The position numbers and the translations under genes were made by a program. A DNA stretch of 20,556 nucleotides from Escherichia coli (GTDB taxonomy: Bacteria > Pseudomonadota > Gammaproteobacteria > Enterobacterales > Enterobacteriaceae): the NCBI GenBank assembly GCA_022664555.1, contig GCA_022664555.1_4839.2. One strand, written 5' to 3'. Every line of letters starts with the position of its first letter. The first letter of the stretch is position 1. Below the pieces are notes generated by a model, which did no database searches, was not told where the DNA came from, and was given only the letters and a program-made list of their open reading frames with translations. Shown here piece by piece: positions 1,043 through 12,535 of this stretch.

Positions 1043-1045
1043 ATA

Positions 1046-1297
1046 ATGATATGCGCGTTTGATCAAGAATTTTATAAAAAGGTCAATATTCTAAAACTTG
1101 TCATGTCTGGAACTAGTTCGAAAGAAGTATCAGAAATTTATTGTATTTCACAGGCCAGGGTGAGCCAGATTTTGAGGGAAACTATAGGGTTACTTTGCCC
1201 AGAGATAGAAATTAAGCGCGTCAACAAAAAGTTCATTGATGAAAATTATTATACAGTAAAAGCCAAAATAAAGTGTTGGGAGAATAAGCATGTATAA
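1046..1297 (+). CDS. Small HTH DNA-binding protein (sigma-70 region-4 / NUMOD1-like helix-turn-helix)
   Basis: ATG at 1046 preceded by GAGGAGG. HTH-like segment SSKEVSEIYCISQARVSQILRE. The ORF lies in a visibly AT-rich island compared with its flanks. Confidence 0.55.
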   Translation: MICAFDQEFYKKVNILKLVMSGTSSKEVSEIYCISQARVSQILRETIGLLCPEIEIKRVNKKFIDENYYTVKAKIKCWENKHV

Positions 1298-3897: not shown

Positions 3898-4212
3898 ATG
3901 ACCCCATTAAAAGAAATGTATGAGCGCCTGGCTGAACTACAGGCGAAGGAAAAGCGCTTCTCAGAAGAAGAGTCTGAAATCTCCGAGCTGAACACTTTGA
4001 TCGCCACTCGCGAGAAGTACCTGCAGCGCTACATTAATCACCCACCGCGCATGGTAGACCGCGTCAGCACTATCATGGACCTGGATGAAGTTACTCCTGG
4101 CAAAGAAATCATTGTCAGGGAAGTCCATCAGATGGTCGCCATGGGTCAGATCTTTGGTCGTGCAGACCAAGACGACATGATGTTCCTCCTTGAAAAGAAA
4201 CTGGTGATGTGA
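3898..4212 (+). CDS. Hypothetical protein (104 aa)
   Basis: ATG at 3898 with AAGAGGA 7 nt upstream; stop TGA overlaps the cd start. Confidence 0.55.
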   Translation: MTPLKEMYERLAELQAKEKRFSEEESEISELNTLIATREKYLQRYINHPPRMVDRVSTIMDLDEVTPGKEIIVREVHQMVAMGQIFGRADQDDMMFLLEKKLVM

Positions 4213-4718
4213 TGGCTATCAAACCCCGTATGTTGTTTGCGCATATGCGCTCGGCTCATGCATACGCTCTGTCCAGCTATGCCCAGCGCCTGAAGGTCGG
4301 CTGTGTTATCGTTGACCCGCGTGTTGACCAGCCCCTGTCTATCGGTTGGAACGGGACTGCTCCTGGCGCTCCTAATGTCTGTGAGAAGGAAGTAGACGGT
4401 CAACTGGTATATGTGGGTGTTATCCACGCCTAGGATAATGCTCTGATCAAACTCCCCCAGCACACCGAAGACTGTTGTGGCCTGGTGATGTTTGTCACTC
4501 ATAGTCCATGCCCAGAGTGCACCCGTCGTATTATCGACAGTGGCAAGATCGCTAAAGTGTTCTATGACCGACAATATAGTATCACAGACTGTATTATTGA
4601 AATGCTGGCTGCTGGAATTGAAGTATATCGCATGGTCGATCAGGTTGTTGTAGTCCAGCATTCTGTGAAGAACGGCGAACTGGTATCCACCCCTGTTTTA
4701 GTGAACCCTGACAAATAA
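4212..4718 (+). pseudogene. cd: dCMP deaminase (cd) interrupted by an in-frame amber codon (TAG at 4431-4433) at the catalytic-Glu position
   Basis: Single 168-codon frame. N-part VGCVIVD...SIGWNGTAPG...VIHA, then TAG, then DNALIKL...THSPCPEC. This matches the deaminase zinc motifs H-A-E and PCxxC, with the stop where E is expected. ORF-track fragments are 4209..4433 and 4485..4718, in the same frame. Confidence 0.75.
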
Positions 4719-4728
4719 GGAATTTATC

Positions 4729-5136
4729 ATGCGTTATGTAGATCGTATGCTCGGCAAAGACGAGCACGTTATTGCCTTCACCCGCCCGACTTGGTGGAGC
4801 GGTTTTTGGATTTATGTTCTGGTTATTTTAACGTTTATTCCAACATTTGGATTCAGCTTGTTATTTCTGATACCAACAATTTTAAATGTATTGACAACTG
4901 AATTCGCTGTGACTAACAAGCGCGTCATCGTCAAGCGCGGGTTCATCCGTCGTGATGCTGATGAGTTGCGCATTGGTAAGGTGGAGACAGTGAAGGTTGA
5001 TCAGTCCATCACAGGCCGCATCTTGGGTTTCTCAACAATCAGCGTGATCGGTACGGGCGGCACCCGCCTGCTGGCCAAGGGTTGTGCTGGTGGTAATGCG
5101 TTCCGTCAGAAGATCTACGATCACCTAGAAGACTGA
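4729..5136 (+). CDS. Membrane protein with bacterial PH-like (DUF304-type) domain
   Basis: ATG at 4729 with AAGGA upstream. Two hydrophobic segments followed by a TNKRVIVKRGFIRRDADELRIGKVETVKVDQSITGRILGF pattern. Confidence 0.55.
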   Translation: MRYVDRMLGKDEHVIAFTRPTWWSGFWIYVLVILTFIPTFGFSLLFLIPTILNVLTTEFAVTNKRVIVKRGFIRRDADELRIGKVETVKVDQSITGRILGFSTISVIGTGGTRLLAKGCAGGNAFRQKIYDHLED

Positions 5137-5138
5137 TC

Positions 5139-5351
5139 ATGATCATTTCAGGTTACACCATCGATCTTTATTGTGAATGCTCAGATTGCAAGGCATGCAG
5201 TTGGGCTTGGGAAGAGCATCACCCCAAGTGCGGGTTCAAACAATACACTGGTGAGACTTGGGGTGAGTGTGTCAAACAGGCGCGAGCAGACGGCTGGCAA
5301 ATTGGGCGCGACAGGCATACCTGTTACGCCCCTGGCCACAAGAGAAGTTAA
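5139..5351 (+). CDS. Small cysteine-rich protein (possible zinc-binding)
   Basis: 70 aa with CECSDCKAC ... HHPKC ... C ... C spacing; follows the previous stop by 2 nt. Confidence 0.45.
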   Translation: MIISGYTIDLYCECSDCKACSWAWEEHHPKCGFKQYTGETWGECVKQARADGWQIGRDRHTCYAPGHKRS

Positions 5352-5962
5352 GGTAAGAGCAGTCCATCATCCCGCTCCGTTGGGGCGGGTTTAATCTCCT
5401 TCCGCATCTGTTCTTTCAAGAATCTGACACGCTCGGCATGTCGGCGATCTTGCATCTCCATATCCCGTTTCTTTTTCGACTTCAATTCGAACTGTTTACG
5501 AACATCCGGATCTTCACCTGGAACAAGATGCTCTTCGGTCCAGATAATGAACTTCCAGTTCTTCTTGGCACACAGTTCGCGGGTGGCCTCCCACTTGGCA
5601 GAATTGACCAACCAGGTTCGCATCGCATTGTTGAACGTCGACTCCTTCATGTTCGGAGTCTTCTTCGGCTGCTTGATCTGGTCTTTGGGCTTGATCTCAA
5701 TGAGGGTGACCTGTAGTTCCTCTTGCCCTTCACGGCGCGTCCAGACCTTGAGGTCCATGAAGTAACGATGGGTGCGCCCGTCTACTGGGGAAATGTAAGG
5801 GATTACGGTCTCCTCGTTTTCCCAGAAAATGATCGCAGGATTAGTATCACAAAACTTGAAAGCCACAAGTTCCAAAGAAGATCGAAATACGATTTTGTTT
5901 GGGTTGCCTTTGTACTTTTTAGGATTGACAGGAACATATTTCCCTTGAAGATATTGCGCCAT
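5348..5962 (-). CDS. Hypothetical protein with PD-(D/E)xK-like nuclease motif and lysine-rich C-terminus
   Basis: ATG at 5962 with GGAGGA upstream, overlapping the seg stop (TAATG). Motif ...PYISPVDGRTHRYFMDLKVW... (D ... D-L-K). Confidence 0.5.
   Translation of the reverse strand: MAQYLQGKYVPVNPKKYKGNPNKIVFRSSLELVAFKFCDTNPAIIFWENEETVIPYISPVDGRTHRYFMDLKVWTRREGQEELQVTLIEIKPKDQIKQPKKTPNMKESTFNNAMRTWLVNSAKWEATRELCAKKNWKFIIWTEEHLVPGEDPDVRKQFELKSKKKRDMEMQDRRHAERVRFLKEQMRKEIKPAPTERDDGLLLP
5371..5395. terminator. Possible bidirectional terminator hairpin between convergent genes
   Basis: cccgctcc-gtt-ggggcggg stem-loop followed by TTTAAT. It lies in the last codons of the minus-strand ORF, so the assignment is tentative. 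Confidence 0.3.
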
Positions 5963-6699
5963 TATGCTTTCCTCCAACCTTTATGCTGTAAATTGCGACC
6001 CTTGTTTACGTGGCCCATGGAGCCTTCGCTCAAACCGATTTCTTTACAAAATTTTGCCAGGTTGACAATTGTCACCAACTGCCCTTCTGGGTTGATGAAT
6101 TTGAATTCTCGGGAATTGGCCTCGGATATTCTCTCGCGCCCTTCTTTCGTCACAGCCCCTTTGCAATTAGAGTAATCTACCAACCCCAATTCAACAAGTC
6201 GCTTATTTGAATTTCTTATTTTGTCCCTGGTTTGCTGGTCTACAACACAACCAAATCTTGGGTTATTTTCTCCCGAACGATCTTTTCCAAACCAAAAATT
6301 TCTAGAACCGTTTAGCGCTCTTGAACGATAAATTCTTTCCAGTTCTTCTTTTGGTTTAGAGAGTAATGTGTTCAGAGCTTTGGTAGACGCCTGCTTTCTA
6401 GCCTCTGGGTCTGAATTGATGTGGTCGAAGGATCCACATCCACCCAGCGTCAAATTGTATGTATCTTCCCTTTCTATAAAATCTTTGGTTACTATTCTGG
6501 ATTCTTCTAGGTACATTTGTTCCTGAGTTTCACACTCCAATAAAATATCCTTTCTGAAGTTTTCAACTCCATGTTTCTTGATTGCTCTGGTTATCATAAC
6601 ACCAGAACCCATATAGCCATCATCCGGTTCGCCTTTGTGGGCACCAACATATATCTTACCGTTTAGAAGATTGGTTATCTGGTAGACGAAGTATCTCAT
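5962..6699 (-). CDS. GIY-YIG homing endonuclease (Seg-like)
   Basis: N-terminal YFVYQITNLLNGKIYVGA ... GYMGSG ... E ... N matches the GIY-YIG catalytic module. C-terminal half has NUMOD-like DNA-binding repeats. GC is visibly lower than in the flanks. Confidence 0.8.
   Translation of the reverse strand: MRYFVYQITNLLNGKIYVGAHKGEPDDGYMGSGVMITRAIKKHGVENFRKDILLECETQEQMYLEESRIVTKDFIEREDTYNLTLGGCGSFDHINSDPEARKQASTKALNTLLSKPKEELERIYRSRALNGSRNFWFGKDRSGENNPRFGCVVDQQTRDKIRNSNKRLVELGLVDYSNCKGAVTKEGRERISEANSREFKFINPEGQLVTIVNLAKFCKEIGLSEGSMGHVNKGRNLQHKGWRKA
5962..6699 (-). mobile_element. Free-standing homing endonuclease gene inserted between nuclease and baseplate genes
   Basis: Same ORF as the Seg-like CDS; intergenic placement and compositional difference from neighbours. 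Confidence 0.55.
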
Positions 6700-6749
6700 A
6701 ATCTAGTCCTAAATAGTCATAACACTCTATCTATTTAAGGGCTGAGACC

Positions 6750-7718
6750 ATGGCCGACTTCAAGAAGACAATCGATAAGATCAAGGTTCTGAACACCAAG
6801 GGATTGTCCCAGGCTCAGAAGCAATTGTCTTATCCCCTGGACGTCACTGGGGGTAAGACCTTAGGACACTATGTCCTATTCAACATCAACCGCATCTCCG
6901 GTTCATCTTATGGCAATACGGCTACTCAGACTATCGAGAACCCAATACAGAACCCTCTGGGGAATACTCCTGTGGTCTATGGGTCCAAGTCTGGTTCCAT
7001 CACCAAATATGCATGGGCGCGTCACGTTCGTTCAAACGAGTCCATCGTCTTGTGTATGCCAGAGTCCATTACAACCAACTATGGTGTTGGCTGGAACGGT
7101 AGTGAGCTGGGGCTGGCTGGAATGGGTGCACAGTTCCTTTCCCGCGCCGCCCAAGACATGACTCAGTTTAAACTGGGTGATGCACTCAACGTCGGGAAGG
7201 AGATGGGGCGATTCGCTGCCACCAAGGCTATCCAATCTGCATCGGAGGCTATCCCGTTCCTGCCGAGCATTAACGCCCATGACACCCTTGAGTTGTTCAC
7301 AGGCACCATGACCAACCCATATGTGGAGATGATCTTCCAGGGTGTTCGCAACCGTGAGATTCCATTTACATTCAAATTCACGCCGCGATCTCAGAAGGAA
7401 GCCAAGATGGTCCGTGAGATCATCCGCATGTTCAAGATGCATATGTACCCAGAGTACAAGTACAACAAGAATTCCAGCGCGTTTTACTTGCATCCTTCAA
7501 CATTCGACATTACGTTCATGGTCAATGGGGAGCGTAACCAGTGGCTACACCGCATCTCCACTTGTGTACTTTCCAACATGTTCGTCAACGAGACGCCGGA
7601 CAGTTCATACGCGGTTCACAAAGATGATGGTATCGTGTCCACGCAGGTTGACATGACCTTCATCGAACTGGAGCCTCTGCATAAAGGGCGCTTTGAAACC
7701 GAAGGCGATAGCTTCTAA
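6750..7718 (+). CDS. Baseplate/tail-tube junction protein with tail-tube fold (gp19-family; gp54/gp48-like by size)
   Basis: 322 aa. C-terminal REIPFTFKFTPRSQKEAKMVREIIRMFKMHMYPE resembles the conserved tube-protein motif. First gene of a + strand structural operon. Confidence 0.6.
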   Translation: MADFKKTIDKIKVLNTKGLSQAQKQLSYPLDVTGGKTLGHYVLFNINRISGSSYGNTATQTIENPIQNPLGNTPVVYGSKSGSITKYAWARHVRSNESIVLCMPESITTNYGVGWNGSELGLAGMGAQFLSRAAQDMTQFKLGDALNVGKEMGRFAATKAIQSASEAIPFLPSINAHDTLELFTGTMTNPYVEMIFQGVRNREIPFTFKFTPRSQKEAKMVREIIRMFKMHMYPEYKYNKNSSAFYLHPSTFDITFMVNGERNQWLHRISTCVLSNMFVNETPDSSYAVHKDDGIVSTQVDMTFIELEPLHKGRFETEGDSF

Positions 7719-7729
7719 GAGAGGATGCC

Positions 7730-8284
7730 ATGAAATATTTTGAGAAGTTTCCACTTGTTTGGCATCAATTGCAAGATGTCAAAGAGAATCATCAGTTGTT
7801 GTTACAGAACTTAACGCGCCGGGTGATGATCTTACAGAAAATTAAGGACATCGAAGGGCTTCTCCTGCCGTATACGATCCAAGAGGGGGAAACCCCAAGG
7901 TCTTTCGCAGAACGCGTTTACGGATCCTTCGAGTTGTTTTGGATACCTTGTCTGATAAACGGCATCATGGACATCAATAAGGACTGGCCAAAACCGGAAC
8001 GTCGTATTGTTGAAGAACTGACTGCAGACTATGGCATCGATGGTATGTGGGATACAGCCTATTATGTAGACCAGTTCAACAATGTGACCGACGCCCGTGC
8101 TATCAAATTTGCATATAACCTAGACCTGGATGAGCCGTCCATAATTGCTAACTATGGTCTGACGGCAGTTTCATATCATGATGATGCAATCAGTAAGAAT
8201 GAAGCCAAACGGAACATCCGAGTACTCGACCCAGATTATGTGTCTTCGTTTGTCAATCAGCTGGAGCAGGAGTTGGCGAAATGA
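7730..8284 (+). CDS. Small baseplate hub-associated protein (gp26/gp28/gp51-like by position)
   Basis: 184 aa; ATG at 7730 with AAGAGAGGA upstream; ATGA-coupled to the next gene. Assignment is by synteny only. Confidence 0.45.
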   Translation: MKYFEKFPLVWHQLQDVKENHQLLLQNLTRRVMILQKIKDIEGLLLPYTIQEGETPRSFAERVYGSFELFWIPCLINGIMDINKDWPKPERRIVEELTADYGIDGMWDTAYYVDQFNNVTDARAIKFAYNLDLDEPSIIANYGLTAVSYHDDAISKNEAKRNIRVLDPDYVSSFVNQLEQELAK

Positions 8285-9669
8285 TCGAAAACAGAGAGAC
8301 CCAAGACGGTATTGTAACACCGTCAACAACATTTGACCTGAAGTATATGGCGATCCTCCCTCATACACCCCAGGGTGGAACACCAACGCCATATGATCTG
8401 ACGGCGTTGTTTGAGGAGTTCAACGTCTTCCAGGATCTGGGTCTTGAAGGGAAGTCATCTCCATCACTTACAGCCAATGTCTTGATAAAAGAAGTGTGTG
8501 ACATTCTTGACACAATGCCTATCTTGGGTGGTGAAGAAGTTGTGGTGTCATTCAAGAGTCCGGCGGCCTCGGAATACCCCACTCTCTCCCTGCGCGTAGC
8601 GCGTGTTGGGCGCGTAGCTGATGAGTCCAACAGCTCGTCCAAGAAAGCATTCTGGTTGCACATGGTGACCACCGATGCCTATAAGGACAGCATGATCCGA
8701 TGCTCCCTCGGTCTTGACGGTTCGTATTCTGACATGGCGAAGGCAATCTTCAATCAGTTGGAGTCGCGCACCAAGTTCGAAGACATCGACCCGTCGTATG
8801 GAATTCAAGAGCGGTTCGCCACCCCGCTCTGGCCTGTGCTGCGATCTATTGATTATATGGCGAGCCGTTCTTATGACGAATTGTTCATGCCATTCGTGTT
8901 CTATGAAGACTTCAATGGCTATCACTTCAAGAGCCTGACGACGTTGTTCAACCAGGGTAGCCAGTCATTGACAGCAGAAGAGAAGCAGGAACTAGCTCAG
9001 CAGAACAAGTTGTTCCGTGATCCTCAGGACGCGCCGCTCATGCAGGATAACAACTTCAACTCTGAGCGCTTTATGCGCACGATCATCAAGGCAGAGAAGA
9101 AGCTGGCGCGTGACCAGTTCATGGCAAACTACCGCGATGTCCTGGCGGTGAACGAGCGCGTCTACGACTTTGAGACCAAGACAGTCACCCCAACACAGCG
9201 CATCTATACTGAGTGGTTTGCAGAGACGGCTCACCTTGATCCGTTCCCGATGTTCTCAGATGAATTCAATCGTCAGAACGTCCGTTACATTGAAGCCCAG
9301 CCGGATGGAGCGGAGCAGATTGATTATGCTCGTCGTGTTATCAACTTCAGTCTTGCCAGCACTGTGATGCGCGTGTTGCTCGTTGGTGATAACCGCCTGA
9401 ACGTCGGTCAGGTGTTCTACGTCGAAGACCAGTCCAACCGTCCTAAGAAGAACGAAAACCTGGCAGAGTTAAGTAAGCTATCGACAGGCCACTATATCGT
9501 GACCAAAGTGCGTCACAAGATTTCCCGCCTAACCAAAGATTATCAGTGCATCGCTGAGATTGCCAAGGACAGTTTGCTGGAGCAGGTGCTTCCACCTCAG
9601 ACCAATCAGACAACTGCTTCCACCACTACTCCTCAGGCGATTGAGAAAGGCCAAGCACAGAAGGTTTAA
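8281..9669 (+). CDS. Baseplate hub subunit, gp27-like (tentative)
   Basis: 462 aa. Segments PLWPVLRSIDYMASRSYDELFMPFVFYEDFNGYHFKSLTTLFNQ and GDNRLNVGQVFYVEDQSN resemble remembered gp27 hub motifs. Immediately upstream of the tape-measure gene. Confidence 0.55.
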   Translation: MIENRETQDGIVTPSTTFDLKYMAILPHTPQGGTPTPYDLTALFEEFNVFQDLGLEGKSSPSLTANVLIKEVCDILDTMPILGGEEVVVSFKSPAASEYPTLSLRVARVGRVADESNSSSKKAFWLHMVTTDAYKDSMIRCSLGLDGSYSDMAKAIFNQLESRTKFEDIDPSYGIQERFATPLWPVLRSIDYMASRSYDELFMPFVFYEDFNGYHFKSLTTLFNQGSQSLTAEEKQELAQQNKLFRDPQDAPLMQDNNFNSERFMRTIIKAEKKLARDQFMANYRDVLAVNERVYDFETKTVTPTQRIYTEWFAETAHLDPFPMFSDEFNRQNVRYIEAQPDGAEQIDYARRVINFSLASTVMRVLLVGDNRLNVGQVFYVEDQSNRPKKNENLAELSKLSTGHYIVTKVRHKISRLTKDYQCIAEIAKDSLLEQVLPPQTNQTTASTTTPQAIEKGQAQKV

Positions 9670-11627: not shown

Positions 11628-12287
11628 TCAGATTCCGTGGGCTTGTATTAGCTCACGGAGTCTCTGTTTTGAATATGTTGTATCCTCATCCGGAACCACA
11701 GCATTCGTCTTCCTGAGCAAGAACGCCTCCGAGTTCCAATAGATGTCATCACGCAGAATCGTATCGTACAGATGAATGAAACCAACGATCTTGTTCAGAC
11801 CGACAAGGAACCAAATCGGGAACTTCTTGATGATGATGTCTGTTAGCAACGGCGGATGACGTGTACCCGTCCCCTTGATGTACTCAATGAAGGTGCAGTT
11901 GCGCTCCCTTATGGCAGGGATCATCTCCCGCTCGAACTCCTCTAGGAAGTTATATGTGAATTTCTCTTACAGCTTACGGTATTCATCATAATTGGCCTGA
12001 GCCTGGCGTGTAAGCAATGTCGTCACCCAGGTCTTGGGTGATTTGATGAAGTTGGCAATGATGTAGTTCTCTACCACTTCACCCTGTGATGACTCGAACC
12101 GACGGGCAAGGCGAGCAAACTGTTTGCACACGGCCTCCTTCGCCAAGAACGTCTCGAACTTGTAATTCATCGGCCCATACAAGCTGTAATCGAAGTCCTT
12201 AGTGGTGAAGTGCAGCTTGATCGCCATGAATACACAGTAAACGTTGAACGCCCGCTCGAACTCCATCTTCTGCCACTCTGTTAGCAT
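11628..12287 (-). pseudogene. 59: gp59-like helicase loader interrupted by an in-frame ochre codon (TAA at 11967-11969)
   Basis: ORFs 11967..12287 and 11628..11924 are in the same frame, separated by one TAA and 14 sense codons. N-part VYCVFMAIKLHFTTKDFDY...NFIKSPKTWV and C-part IYWNSEAFLLRK resemble gp59 N- and C-domains. Combined length is about 219 aa. Confidence 0.5.
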
Positions 12288-12535
12288 TTGCGTTCCTCTT
12301 CTTTAATAAATTGCAATAACTCTTCCATCAGCCCTTTCTTCTTGATGAACTGTAACACCAGGATGAAGCGACGGAAGGAGCGGGGGACAACACGATAACC
12401 CTTCGCCCAGTAGTTCACAACATTAGAACAATCCAATAAACGAGCCAGCCCAGATTGTGACACCCCGAGGCTCAGCAGAACCTTGTACATGTACTTCTTG
12501 TCATTTACCGGAAGCTCTTTCATTCTTAAACTCAT
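12281..12535 (-). CDS. Small XRE/Cro-like HTH protein
   Basis: HTH-like GVSQSGLARLLDCSNVVNYWAKG. Start uncertain (ATG at 12535 or 12523). Overlaps the gp59-like start by 7 nt and contains its RBS. Confidence 0.45.
   Translation of the reverse strand: MSLRMKELPVNDKKYMYKVLLSLGVSQSGLARLLDCSNVVNYWAKGYRVVPRSFRRFILVLQFIKKKGLMEELLQFIKEEERKC

What the first reader, a model, noticed from the sequence alone, without database searches (positions are those of the whole stretch)
5962..6699. Seg-like GIY-YIG homing endonuclease inserted between a nuclease gene and the baseplate operon
The catalytic GIY-YIG module is clear (FVYQITNLLNGKIYVGA...). The gene has lower GC than its neighbours, is tightly wedged (its stop overlaps the downstream start), and sits at a divergent junction with the structural operon. 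This is the typical arrangement of a mobile free-standing homing endonuclease whose cleavage site would lie in a neighbouring conserved gene of relatives that lack it.
Basis: partly seen in the sequence, partly recalled or inferred. Interest (0 to 1): 0.5.

Follow-up and report, generated by a model that had tools for sequence, protein, structure and literature searches.

The report
Mobile GIY-YIG homing endonuclease gene
This is a selfish Seg-type homing endonuclease gene in an Ackermannviridae phage that entered together with about 150 bases of the neighbouring head-completion gene, a clear but ordinary example of a known kind of mobile element.

Summary

- **The gene.** The ORF at 5962..6699 (-) encodes 245 aa. 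The N-terminus is a Seg-type GIY-YIG nuclease domain. The C-terminus is a NUMOD3 plus helix-turn-helix DNA-binding module.
- **The setting.** The window is an Agtrevirus-like Ackermannviridae phage contig deposited under E. coli. The gene lies between gp4 (head completion, TnsA-like nuclease fold) and the divergent gp48/gp53 baseplate genes.
- **Presence and absence.** The closest relatives examined (~97% nt: A221, fGh-Ecl02), plus Ag3 and EspM4VN, lack it. In them the gp4 ATG sits exactly where the endonuclease ATG sits here.
- **Orthologues.** Copies 72-79% identical occupy the same site in Limestonevirus (F-LimII, annotated in 2012) and in some Kuttervirus and Taipeivirus genomes.
- **Imported flank.** The first ~147 nt of gp4 next to the gene are ~66% identical to the close relatives. 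The rest of the contig averages 97%. The same boundary (gp4 nt 147-162) recurs in four HEG+/HEG- pairs. This is a co-conversion tract, and it places the likely cut site near gp4 nt 140-165.
- **State of the gene.** All orthologues are intact, with dN/dS 0.05-0.16.
- **Verdict.** New member of a known kind; cleavage is untested.

The parts
5962..6699 (-). Free-standing GIY-YIG homing endonuclease gene (245 aa; F-LimII orthologue, Seg-type)
   Evidence: ORF. Pfam and PHROG matches. Orthologues 72-79% identical occupy the same site in other phages. It is absent from the nearest relatives.
6430..6699 (-). N-terminal GIY-YIG catalytic domain (aa 1-90)
   Evidence: Y6, Y17, E66 and N82 are invariant in 70 homologues. 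The AF2 model matches the I-TevI catalytic domain 1LN0 (prob 1.0, TMt 0.68). T4 SegA is 42% identical over 81 aa.
6214..6276 (-). NUMOD3 motif (aa 142-162) in the linker and DNA-binding region
   Evidence: Pfam PF07460, 25.3 bits against a cutoff of 20.4.
5968..6132 (-). C-terminal helix-turn-helix-type DNA-binding module (aa 190-244)
   Evidence: It aligns to the C-terminal DNA-binding part of I-HmuI (1U3E) by sequence and by fold. PHROG 2081 matches residues 190-244.
5960..5975 (-). TAATG stop/start overlap, plus a GGAGG ribosome-binding site for gp4 encoded in the last endonuclease codons (W-R-K-A)
   Evidence: Read directly from the sequence. The same 3' junction (GCTTTCCTCCAA on the + strand) is present in LIMEstone1 and Det7. 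The C-terminal WRKA is invariant in 7 orthologues.
5816..5962 (-). Imported (co-converted) 5' part of gp4, nt 1-147
   Evidence: 50 differences from fGh-Ecl02 fall in gp4 nt 1-150, against 10 in nt 151-615. The three least-identical aligned 50-nt windows of the whole contig lie here. The tract is 88% identical to the HEG+ lineage L008/L014.
5798..5824 (-). Position equivalent to the predicted target region (gp4 nt ~139-165) in genomes that lack the endonuclease gene
   Evidence: Inference only. The conversion-tract boundary falls at gp4 nt 147-162 in four HEG+/HEG- pairs. The only alignment columns that separate all HEG- alleles from all HEG+ alleles are nt 142-143.
5348..5962 (-). gp4 head completion gene (204 aa, TnsA-like nuclease fold), downstream of the endonuclease and overlapping it by one base (TAATG)
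   Evidence: Pfam PF08722, 63.6 bits; PHROG 218, E=5.6e-57. Relatives annotate the orthologue as the head completion protein.
6700..6749 (.). 50-bp divergent intergenic region, native to the Agtrevirus backbone, with two TAAATAG late-promoter-like boxes (6710-6716 +, 6731-6737 -) and an AGGA ribosome-binding site (6707-6710, -) now used by the endonuclease
   Evidence: 49/50 identical to A221 and fGh-Ecl02. The boxes are the only two TAAATAG in the window. They coincide with the late -10 signals annotated in LIMEstone1.
6750..7718 (+). gp48 baseplate tail tube cap, first gene of the divergent baseplate cluster
   Evidence: PHROG 230, E=7e-114; Pfam T4_tail_cap.

Best explanation
The ORF encodes a functional, free-standing Seg-type GIY-YIG homing endonuclease, an orthologue of F-LimII of Dickeya phage LIMEstone1. 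It entered this Agtrevirus-like phage by double-strand-break repair (intronless homing) from a diverged HEG+ relative.

**Shown**
- The gene sits exactly between the gp4 translation-initiation region and the gp4 ATG.
- It takes over the gp4 ribosome-binding site and the position downstream of the gp4-side late-promoter box.
- It supplies a new GGAGG ribosome-binding site for gp4 inside its own last codons.
- It came in together with the first ~147 nt of gp4.

**Inferred**
- In a mixed infection, the protein is made late from the gp4 late promoter.
- It binds the HEG- allele through its C-terminal NUMOD3/HTH module.
- It cuts near gp4 nt ~140-165, which is ~150 bp from the insertion point.
- The phage recombination machinery (UvsX, gp59 and gp41 orthologues are encoded in the same window) repairs the break from the HEG+ genome.
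- That repair copies the endonuclease gene and the intervening gp4 segment.
- The diverged gp4 segment protects HEG+ genomes from being cut.
For: **Domain architecture.** Pfam SegE_GIY-YIG and NUMOD3 score above their cutoffs. PHROG 314 gives E=3.4e-45. Y6, Y17, E66 and N82 are invariant in 70 homologues. The AF2 model (pLDDT 85.8) matches the I-TevI catalytic domain and the I-HmuI DNA-binding region. T4 SegA is 42% identical over 81 aa, E=2e-15.

**Presence/absence at one exact site.** A221, fGh-Ecl02, Ag3 and EspM4VN have the empty site. In Kuttervirus, Det7 has the gene and CBA120 lacks it. In Taipeivirus, KpS110 has it and Menlow lacks it. 214 records carry an intact empty junction, and HEG+ records break at the gp4 start codon. 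58 records carry a 60-80% identical orthologue. All orthologues examined, including metagenomic ones, sit between gp48 and gp4.

**Co-conversion.** gp4 nt 1-147 are ~66% identical to the nearest relatives, against 97-99% elsewhere. These are the three most diverged aligned 50-nt windows of 391 in the contig. The same boundary, at nt 147-162, is seen in four HEG+/HEG- pairs. On the gp48 side, identity resumes immediately at the endonuclease ATG.

**Purifying selection.** Seven orthologues are intact, with dN/dS 0.05-0.16.

**Literature.** Free-standing T4 endonucleases cut at a distance from their genes. Their homing co-converts the DNA between the cut and the gene (PMC2988022).
Against: - No cleavage or inheritance experiment exists for this protein or for F-LimII. 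The 2012 paper annotates it by similarity only.
- The canonical GIY-YIG arginine (I-TevI R27) has no invariant counterpart. R38 is present in only 28 of 70 homologues; H21, K42 and K50 are the conserved basic residues.
- The generic Pfam GIY-YIG model and TIGR01453 both score below their cutoffs.
- The donor is not in any database searched. The best tract match is 88% and the best protein match is 79%.
- Ackermannviridae genomes are mosaic in general. One example is the patch at 4800-4899. Ordinary recombination could therefore have moved the cassette.
- The tract boundary also coincides with the start of a highly conserved gp4 block. It may mark where homology begins rather than where the cut lies.
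Confidence: 0.85

Rival explanations
1. The gene is a passenger, not a driver. It is an old resident of the family that ordinary homologous recombination between co-infecting phages moved into this genome, with no contribution from its own nuclease activity. It may now be inactive or serve another role.
For: Mosaic patches unrelated to any endonuclease exist nearby: 4800-4899, and KpS110 vs Menlow at gp4 nt 252-291. The endonuclease gene is itself a recombinant of several alleles. No biochemical data exist.
Against: The recombination boundary falls within the same 15 nt in four HEG+/HEG- pairs. It always lies on the gp4 side and always abuts the gene. That fits a fixed break site better than random crossovers. 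Strong purifying selection on all seven orthologues argues for a maintained activity.
Confidence: 0.1
2. It is a decaying or inactive remnant of a homing endonuclease, at a late stage of the homing cycle.
For: There is no invariant arginine equivalent to I-TevI R27. The generic GIY-YIG Pfam model scores below its threshold.
Against: The ORF is full length in all seven orthologues, with dN/dS 0.05-0.16 and synonymous sites near saturation. The same arginine-less signature (H...DGYMGSG...K) is present in T4 SegA. SegA is listed as an active endonuclease in PMC2988022.
Confidence: 0.03
3. It is a transposon-like or intron-borne insertion rather than a free-standing homing endonuclease gene.
For: None found.
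Against: No Rfam family, including group I introns, reaches threshold anywhere in the window. No target-site duplication or terminal inverted repeats flank the insert. The insert begins exactly at an ATG and ends in TAATG between two intact genes.
Confidence: 0.01

Closest known systems
F-LimII (ORF22) of Dickeya phage vB_DsoM_LIMEstone1 and its orthologues in Kuttervirus (Det7 gp130, PhiSH19) and Taipeivirus (KpS110 gp055)
   Same: The insertion site is the same, between gp48 and gp4, with the same orientation and length (245-246 aa). The conserved 3' junction carries the gp4 ribosome-binding site. Identity is 73-76% aa. PMC3296691 annotates it as a free-standing GIY-YIG endonuclease whose downstream gene is the head completion protein.
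   Different: This copy sits on an Agtrevirus-like backbone. No Agtrevirus-type relative examined in the phage collection has it. It is a distinct, internally recombinant allele: aa 1-150 resemble L008/L014, aa 151-190 resemble LIMEstone1, and aa 191-245 resemble KpS110.
T4 Seg endonucleases (SegA-G), which carry out intronless homing
   Same: It is free-standing, with an N-terminal GIY-YIG domain carrying the Seg signature (YxITN...KIYxGxH...DGYMGSG...E...YN). SegA is 42% identical over 81 aa. The flanking gene is co-converted, and the inferred cut site lies some distance from the gene.
   Different: The genomic site differs, and the C-terminal DNA-binding region is unrelated to that of SegA. 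Activity and target have not been shown. The inferred cut-to-gene distance (~150 bp) is at the short end of what the T4 review describes (hundreds to thousands of bp). Only SegA, SegF and I-TevII were compared directly.
I-TevI (T4 td intron endonuclease)
   Same: It has a two-domain design: a GIY-YIG catalytic domain (Foldseek prob 1.0 to 1LN0), a linker, and a NUMOD3/HTH DNA-binding module.
   Different: It is not intron-encoded. TIGR01453 scores 42 bits, below its 56-bit cutoff. A 7-residue deletion removes the segment that carries R27 in I-TevI. No operator-like copy of the putative target was found at its promoter.
I-HmuI (HNH endonuclease of Bacillus phage SPO1)
   Same: The C-terminal ~90 residues align to the I-HmuI DNA-binding region (1U3E residues 70-166) by sequence and by fold.
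   Different: There is no HNH domain. The nuclease domain is GIY-YIG. The 'HNH endonuclease' labels on the Det7, PP35 and vB_SenM-2 orthologues reflect only the shared DNA-binding module.

Membership tests
GIY-YIG nuclease superfamily | Two short motifs, each with a conserved Tyr (GIY ... YIG), 10-11 residues apart at the N-terminus | tested here: met
   The sequence has FVY(4-6) and IYVG(16-19). Y6, Y17 and G19 are invariant in 70 homologues.
GIY-YIG nuclease superfamily | Conserved catalytic Glu and Asn (I-TevI E75, N90) | tested here: met
   E66 and N82 are invariant in 70/70 homologues. They align to I-TevI E75 and N90.
GIY-YIG nuclease superfamily | Conserved Arg following the YIG motif (I-TevI R27) | tested here: inconclusive
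   The R27 segment falls in a 7-residue gap of the alignment. R38 is present in only 28/70 homologues. H21 (70/70), K42 (69/70) and K50 (68/70) are the conserved basic residues. T4 SegA shares this pattern. Model coordinates could not be inspected.
GIY-YIG nuclease superfamily | Profile match and fold | tested here: met
   PF19835 SegE_GIY-YIG scores 34.2 bits against a cutoff of 25. The generic PF01541 scores only 18 against 22.6. Foldseek matches the I-TevI catalytic domain 1LN0 with prob 1.0, TMt 0.68.
Free-standing (Seg-type) phage homing endonucleases | A separate ORF between genes, not inside an intron or intein | tested here: met
   The empty site shows gp4 and gp48 separated by 50 bp. 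No group I intron or other Rfam match was found.
Free-standing (Seg-type) phage homing endonucleases | Sequence relatedness to T4 Seg proteins | tested here: met
   SegA gives E=2e-15, 42% identity over 81 aa. SegF is only marginal (E=0.036). SegB-E and SegG were not compared.
Free-standing (Seg-type) phage homing endonucleases | Sporadic presence/absence at one site among close relatives | tested here: met
Free-standing (Seg-type) phage homing endonucleases | Co-conversion of flanking DNA with the endonuclease gene | tested here: met
   gp4 nt 1-147 were imported with the gene. The boundary recurs at nt 147-162 in four HEG+/HEG- pairs.
Free-standing (Seg-type) phage homing endonucleases | Site-specific double-strand cleavage of the HEG- allele, and super-Mendelian inheritance in mixed infection | not testable with these tools
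   This needs a protein cleavage assay and phage crosses. The one library paper that names the orthologue F-LimII annotates it by similarity only.
F-LimII orthologous group (Ackermannviridae gp48/gp4 site) | Same insertion site, orientation and junction sequences; full-length similarity | tested here: met
   72-79% aa identity over 99-100% of the length. The 5' and 3' junctions are shared.
HNH homing endonucleases (label carried by some orthologues) | HNH nuclease motif or domain | tested here: not met
   No HNH Pfam family hit. Similarity to I-HmuI and to PHROG 2081 is confined to C-terminal residues 150-244.
Group I intron endonucleases (TIGR01453) | Score above the curated cutoff; location within an intron | tested here: not met
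   42.2 bits against a cutoff of 56.05. No intron was found.

The most novel reading that the evidence does not exclude
The endonuclease and the first ~150 nt of gp4 may form one co-adapted mobile cassette.

- The endonuclease's last codons encode the ribosome-binding site of the essential gp4 gene, and the endonuclease occupies gp4's own initiation region. The host gene's expression would then be tied to the selfish gene, so only a precise deletion could remove it.
- The enzyme would cut a fixed site at gp4 nt ~140-165, in DNA that Ackermannviridae hypermodify at thymidine. Each homing event would then also replace the N-terminal 49 residues of gp4 (13 amino-acid changes here).

If this holds, the locus would be a natural system for studying endonuclease-driven allele replacement in a structural or nuclease gene. 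It would also provide a GIY-YIG enzyme that is active on hypermodified DNA.
Probability: 0.3. Interest if true: 0.45.

Novelty: new member of a known kind. Interest (0 to 1): 0.3.

Why it matters
- **Annotation.** It corrects an NCBI 'hypothetical protein [Escherichia coli]' to a phage homing endonuclease. It also flags orthologues mislabelled as HNH enzymes.
- **A clean natural example.** It shows intronless homing outside the T4 group. One gene appears at one exact site in four Ackermannviridae genera, each time with the same ~150-nt flank of gp4.
- **A testable prediction.** The cleavage site should lie near gp4 nt 140-165 in genomes that lack the gene.
- **Practical note.** Ackermannviridae phages are used for biocontrol and therapy. 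Endonuclease-driven marker exchange is therefore relevant to cocktail design.
- **Limit.** None of this is surprising to a specialist.

Tried and rejected
- **Operator-like target copy.** I looked for a copy of the putative target at the endonuclease promoter, as in I-TevI autorepression. The best local alignment between A221 gp4 nt 1-220 and window 6690-6760 scored 7.5, equal to the shuffle mean. Rejected.
- **Promoter scans.** The T4 late-promoter consensus TATAAATA has no hit near the gene. No sigma-70-type promoter was found in 5200-6900. The TAAATAG boxes match LIMEstone1's annotation, but two hits are not significant by count alone.
- **Search for the donor or identical copies.**
  - Complete E. 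coli genomes: no match.
  - JGI metagenomes, exact 28-mer across the endonuclease-gp4 junction: no match.
  - IMG/VR: only the ~83%-identical L014 lineage.
- **Other mobile-element types.** Transposon, IS and intron explanations were rejected.
- **Broader profile models.** The generic Pfam GIY-YIG model and TIGR01453 both score below their cutoffs. They were not used as evidence of membership.
- **Not completed.** I did not compare the protein with T4 SegB-E and SegG, because only T4 bases 1-50000 were fetched. I did not inspect the 3D model for the residue that replaces I-TevI R27, because no coordinates were available.
Full report
**What the window is.** The 20,556-bp window is an Ackermannviridae (Aglimvirinae, Agtrevirus-like) phage contig. 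Megablast finds Enterobacter phage fGh-Ecl02 and Escherichia phages LHE287, A221, ZQ1 and YX22 at ~96.8% identity over 94-95% of its length. Shigella phage Ag3 follows at ~92% and the Dickeya Limestonevirus phages at ~86%. The endonuclease protein is identical to NCBI 'hypothetical protein MKK42_21810 [Escherichia coli]' on a 20,556-bp contig. The window is therefore a phage contig deposited within an E. coli assembly.

**Checking the observation.** The ORF at 5962..6699 (-) encodes 245 aa and starts MRYFVYQITNLLNGKIYVGAHKG.
- Pfam matches SegE_GIY-YIG (34.2 bits, cutoff 25) and NUMOD3 (25.3 bits, cutoff 20.4).
- The generic GIY-YIG model scores 18 bits, below its cutoff of 22.6.
- PHROG 314 'homing endonuclease' matches at E=3.4e-45.
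- The gene is 41.2% GC. gp48 is 50.3%, the native part of gp4 is 51.3% and the window overall is 49.0%. The gene contains the lowest-GC 400-nt stretch of the contig.
- Its TAA stop (5962-5964) overlaps the ATG (5960-5962) of the next gene as TAATG.
- That next gene (5348..5962, 204 aa) is the T4 gp4-type head completion protein, with a TnsA-like nuclease fold (PF08722, 63.6 bits; PHROG 218).
- Fifty bp upstream, on the other strand, begin gp48 (6750..7718), gp53 (7730..8284) and the hub/tail protein (8281..9669).

**Protein anatomy.** In an alignment of 70 homologues, the invariant residues are Y6, N10, Y17, G19, H21, D27, Y29, F48, E66, Y81 and N82.
- Y6 and Y17 are the GIY-YIG tyrosines.
- E66 and N82 align to I-TevI E75 and N90.
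- No arginine is invariant. The I-TevI R27 segment falls in a 7-residue deletion. H21, K42 and K50 are the conserved basic residues.
- T4 SegA has the same signature and is 42% identical over 81 residues (E=2e-15). The T4 review lists SegA as an active enzyme (PMC2988022).
- An AlphaFold2 model (mean pLDDT 85.8) matches the I-TevI catalytic domain (1LN0, prob 1.0, TMt 0.68).
- Its C-terminal part matches the DNA-binding region of I-HmuI (1U3E). phmmer found that same match by sequence.

The protein therefore has a GIY-YIG nuclease domain, a linker with a NUMOD3 motif, and a C-terminal helix-turn-helix module. There is no HNH domain. The 'HNH endonuclease' labels on some orthologues reflect only the shared DNA-binding module.

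**Presence and absence.** A221, fGh-Ecl02, Ag3 and EspM4VN lack the gene. Their gp4 and gp48 are separated by the same 50-bp spacer.
- The other ~96%-identical relatives cover only 80% of the 3.6-kb query, in two pieces. That is consistent with the same absence.
- Base-level comparison shows that the gp4 ATG of the empty site lies exactly where the endonuclease ATG lies here.
- The insert ends with ...TGGAGGAAAGCATAATG. This provides a GGAGG ribosome-binding site for gp4 inside the endonuclease's last codons.
- LIMEstone1 and Det7 have the same 5' and 3' junctions.
- Orthologues 72-79% identical lie at this site in every case examined:
  - Limestonevirus: F-LimII.
  - Some Kuttervirus: Det7, and PhiSH19, SenALZ1, barely and Mutine.
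  - Some Taipeivirus: KpS110, and FKP14 and Bestiario.
  - Three Logan metagenomic contigs.
  - An IMG/VR genome.
- CBA120 (Kuttervirus) and Menlow (Taipeivirus) lack it.
- A 351-bp empty-site query finds 214 records with an uninterrupted junction. Alignments to HEG+ records break at the gp4 start codon.
- tblastn finds 58 records with a 60-80% identical orthologue.

The gene is thus sporadic across four genera at one exact site.

**Co-conversion tract.** Against fGh-Ecl02, gp4 shows 50 differences in nt 1-150 and 10 in nt 151-615.
- Across the whole contig, 391 aligned 50-nt windows average 96.9% identity. The three lowest (33-38 of 50) are the three that abut the endonuclease gene.
- On the gp48 side, identity returns to 49/50 immediately after the endonuclease ATG.
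- The foreign DNA is therefore window ~5816-6699: the endonuclease gene plus gp4 nt 1-147.
- The same pattern recurs in other genera:
  - Det7 vs CBA120: dense differences end at nt 155.
  - KpS110 vs Menlow: they end at nt 156-162.
  - LIMEstone1 vs EspM4VN: they end at nt 155.
  - In all three, the sequence is near-identical thereafter and on the gp48 side.
- The imported tract is 88% identical to the HEG+ lineage L008/L014 and 65-71% identical to all the others. The actual donor is not in the databases searched.

**Inferred target.** The T4 review describes free-standing endonucleases that cut at a distance from their genes, with the intervening DNA co-converted. A boundary fixed within ~15 nt in four comparisons, always on the gp4 side, points to a break near gp4 nt ~140-165 of HEG- alleles.
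- The only alignment columns that separate all six HEG- alleles from all seven HEG+ alleles are nt 142-143 (TGG-TC in HEG-).
- nt 151-155 differ in five of the seven HEG+ alleles.
- This is inference. The boundary also coincides with the start of a highly conserved block (codons for VIPYISPVDGRxHRYFMD). It could simply mark where strand invasion becomes possible.

**Functionality.** All seven orthologues are intact. Synonymous sites are near saturation and dN/dS is 0.05-0.16. The gene is itself a recombinant:
- aa 1-150 resemble L008 (90-95%);
- aa 151-190 resemble LIMEstone1 (88%, against 23% to L008);
- aa 191-245 resemble KpS110 (89%).

**Expression (inferred).** The 50-bp spacer holds the only two TAAATAG motifs of the window, in divergent orientation. 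They sit at the positions annotated as late -10 signals in LIMEstone1. The endonuclease now follows the gp4-side box and uses the former gp4 ribosome-binding site (AGGA, 6707-6710). It is probably made late, on one transcript with gp4. No sigma-70 promoter or canonical T4 late box is present.

**Alternatives.** Three alternatives were considered.
- Intron, transposon or IS: excluded.
- Pseudogene: contradicted.
- Passive transfer by ordinary recombination: this cannot be excluded without experiments, because mosaic patches exist elsewhere. It explains the recurrent one-sided boundary less well.

**Comparison with what is known.** Adriaenssens et al. 2012 (PMC3296691) list F-LimII as a free-standing GIY-YIG endonuclease. 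They give SegD of phage 133 as its best phage homologue and the head completion gene as the downstream gene. They report no experiment. The present gene is a new allele of that group on an Agtrevirus-like backbone. I could not find the recurrent co-conversion boundary or the target prediction in the literature library. Only one paper there names F-LimII, and papers on Ackermannviridae homing endonucleases are descriptive.

**Verdict.** The finding is real and correctly interpreted. It is a new member of a known kind, of modest interest.

Noticed in passing
window 4212-4718 (+), stop at 4431-4433: The dCMP deaminase gene carries an in-frame TAG at codon 74, which replaces the catalytic Glu of the HAE motif (G->T at 4431). 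Eight of its 15 differences from phage A221 are G->T or C->A transversions. This could be a real pseudogene, or an oxidative-damage or low-coverage sequencing artefact.
   Followed up: partly
window 1045-1289 (ORF 1046..1297 +): A 245-bp low-GC segment is absent from fGh-Ecl02 and Ag3 and lies between the Tk.4-like and DexA genes. It encodes an 83-aa protein with weak helix-turn-helix / sigma-70 region 4 matches, all below cutoff. It is the second-lowest GC region of the window.
   Followed up: partly
window 4800-4899 (bPH_2 / membrane-flanked domain gene): There is a 100-nt mosaic patch here. The window, A221, fGh-Ecl02 and Kuttervirus Det7 agree (48/50), whereas Ag3, EspM4VN and LIMEstone1 differ (31-36/50). 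This indicates recombination across genera that is unrelated to any endonuclease gene.
   Followed up: no
window 5962-6699: The endonuclease gene is a domain-level recombinant. Residues 1-150 resemble the L008/L014 lineage, residues 151-190 (the NUMOD3 region) resemble LIMEstone1, and residues 191-245 resemble KpS110.
   Followed up: yes
window 7718-7730 and ~12281-12526; L002 4564-6207; L004 11449-12144: Other endonuclease insertion sites in this region are empty in the window. LIMEstone1 has the Hef-like F-LimIII between gp48 and gp53. Ag3 has a MobE-like endonuclease next to gp59. Endonuclease content varies from genome to genome.
   Followed up: no
public records of orthologues (Det7 gene 130, PP35, vB_SenM-2) and NCBI MKK42_21810: Orthologues are annotated as 'HNH endonuclease', 'endonuclease segB domain protein' or 'hypothetical protein'. 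The window's own contig is filed under Escherichia coli. The nuclease domain is in fact GIY-YIG.
   Followed up: yes
L006 vs L013, gp4 nt 252-291: KpS110 (HEG+) and Menlow (HEG-) show a second cluster of differences inside gp4. It lies downstream of the main conversion tract and is not seen in the other pairs.
   Followed up: no
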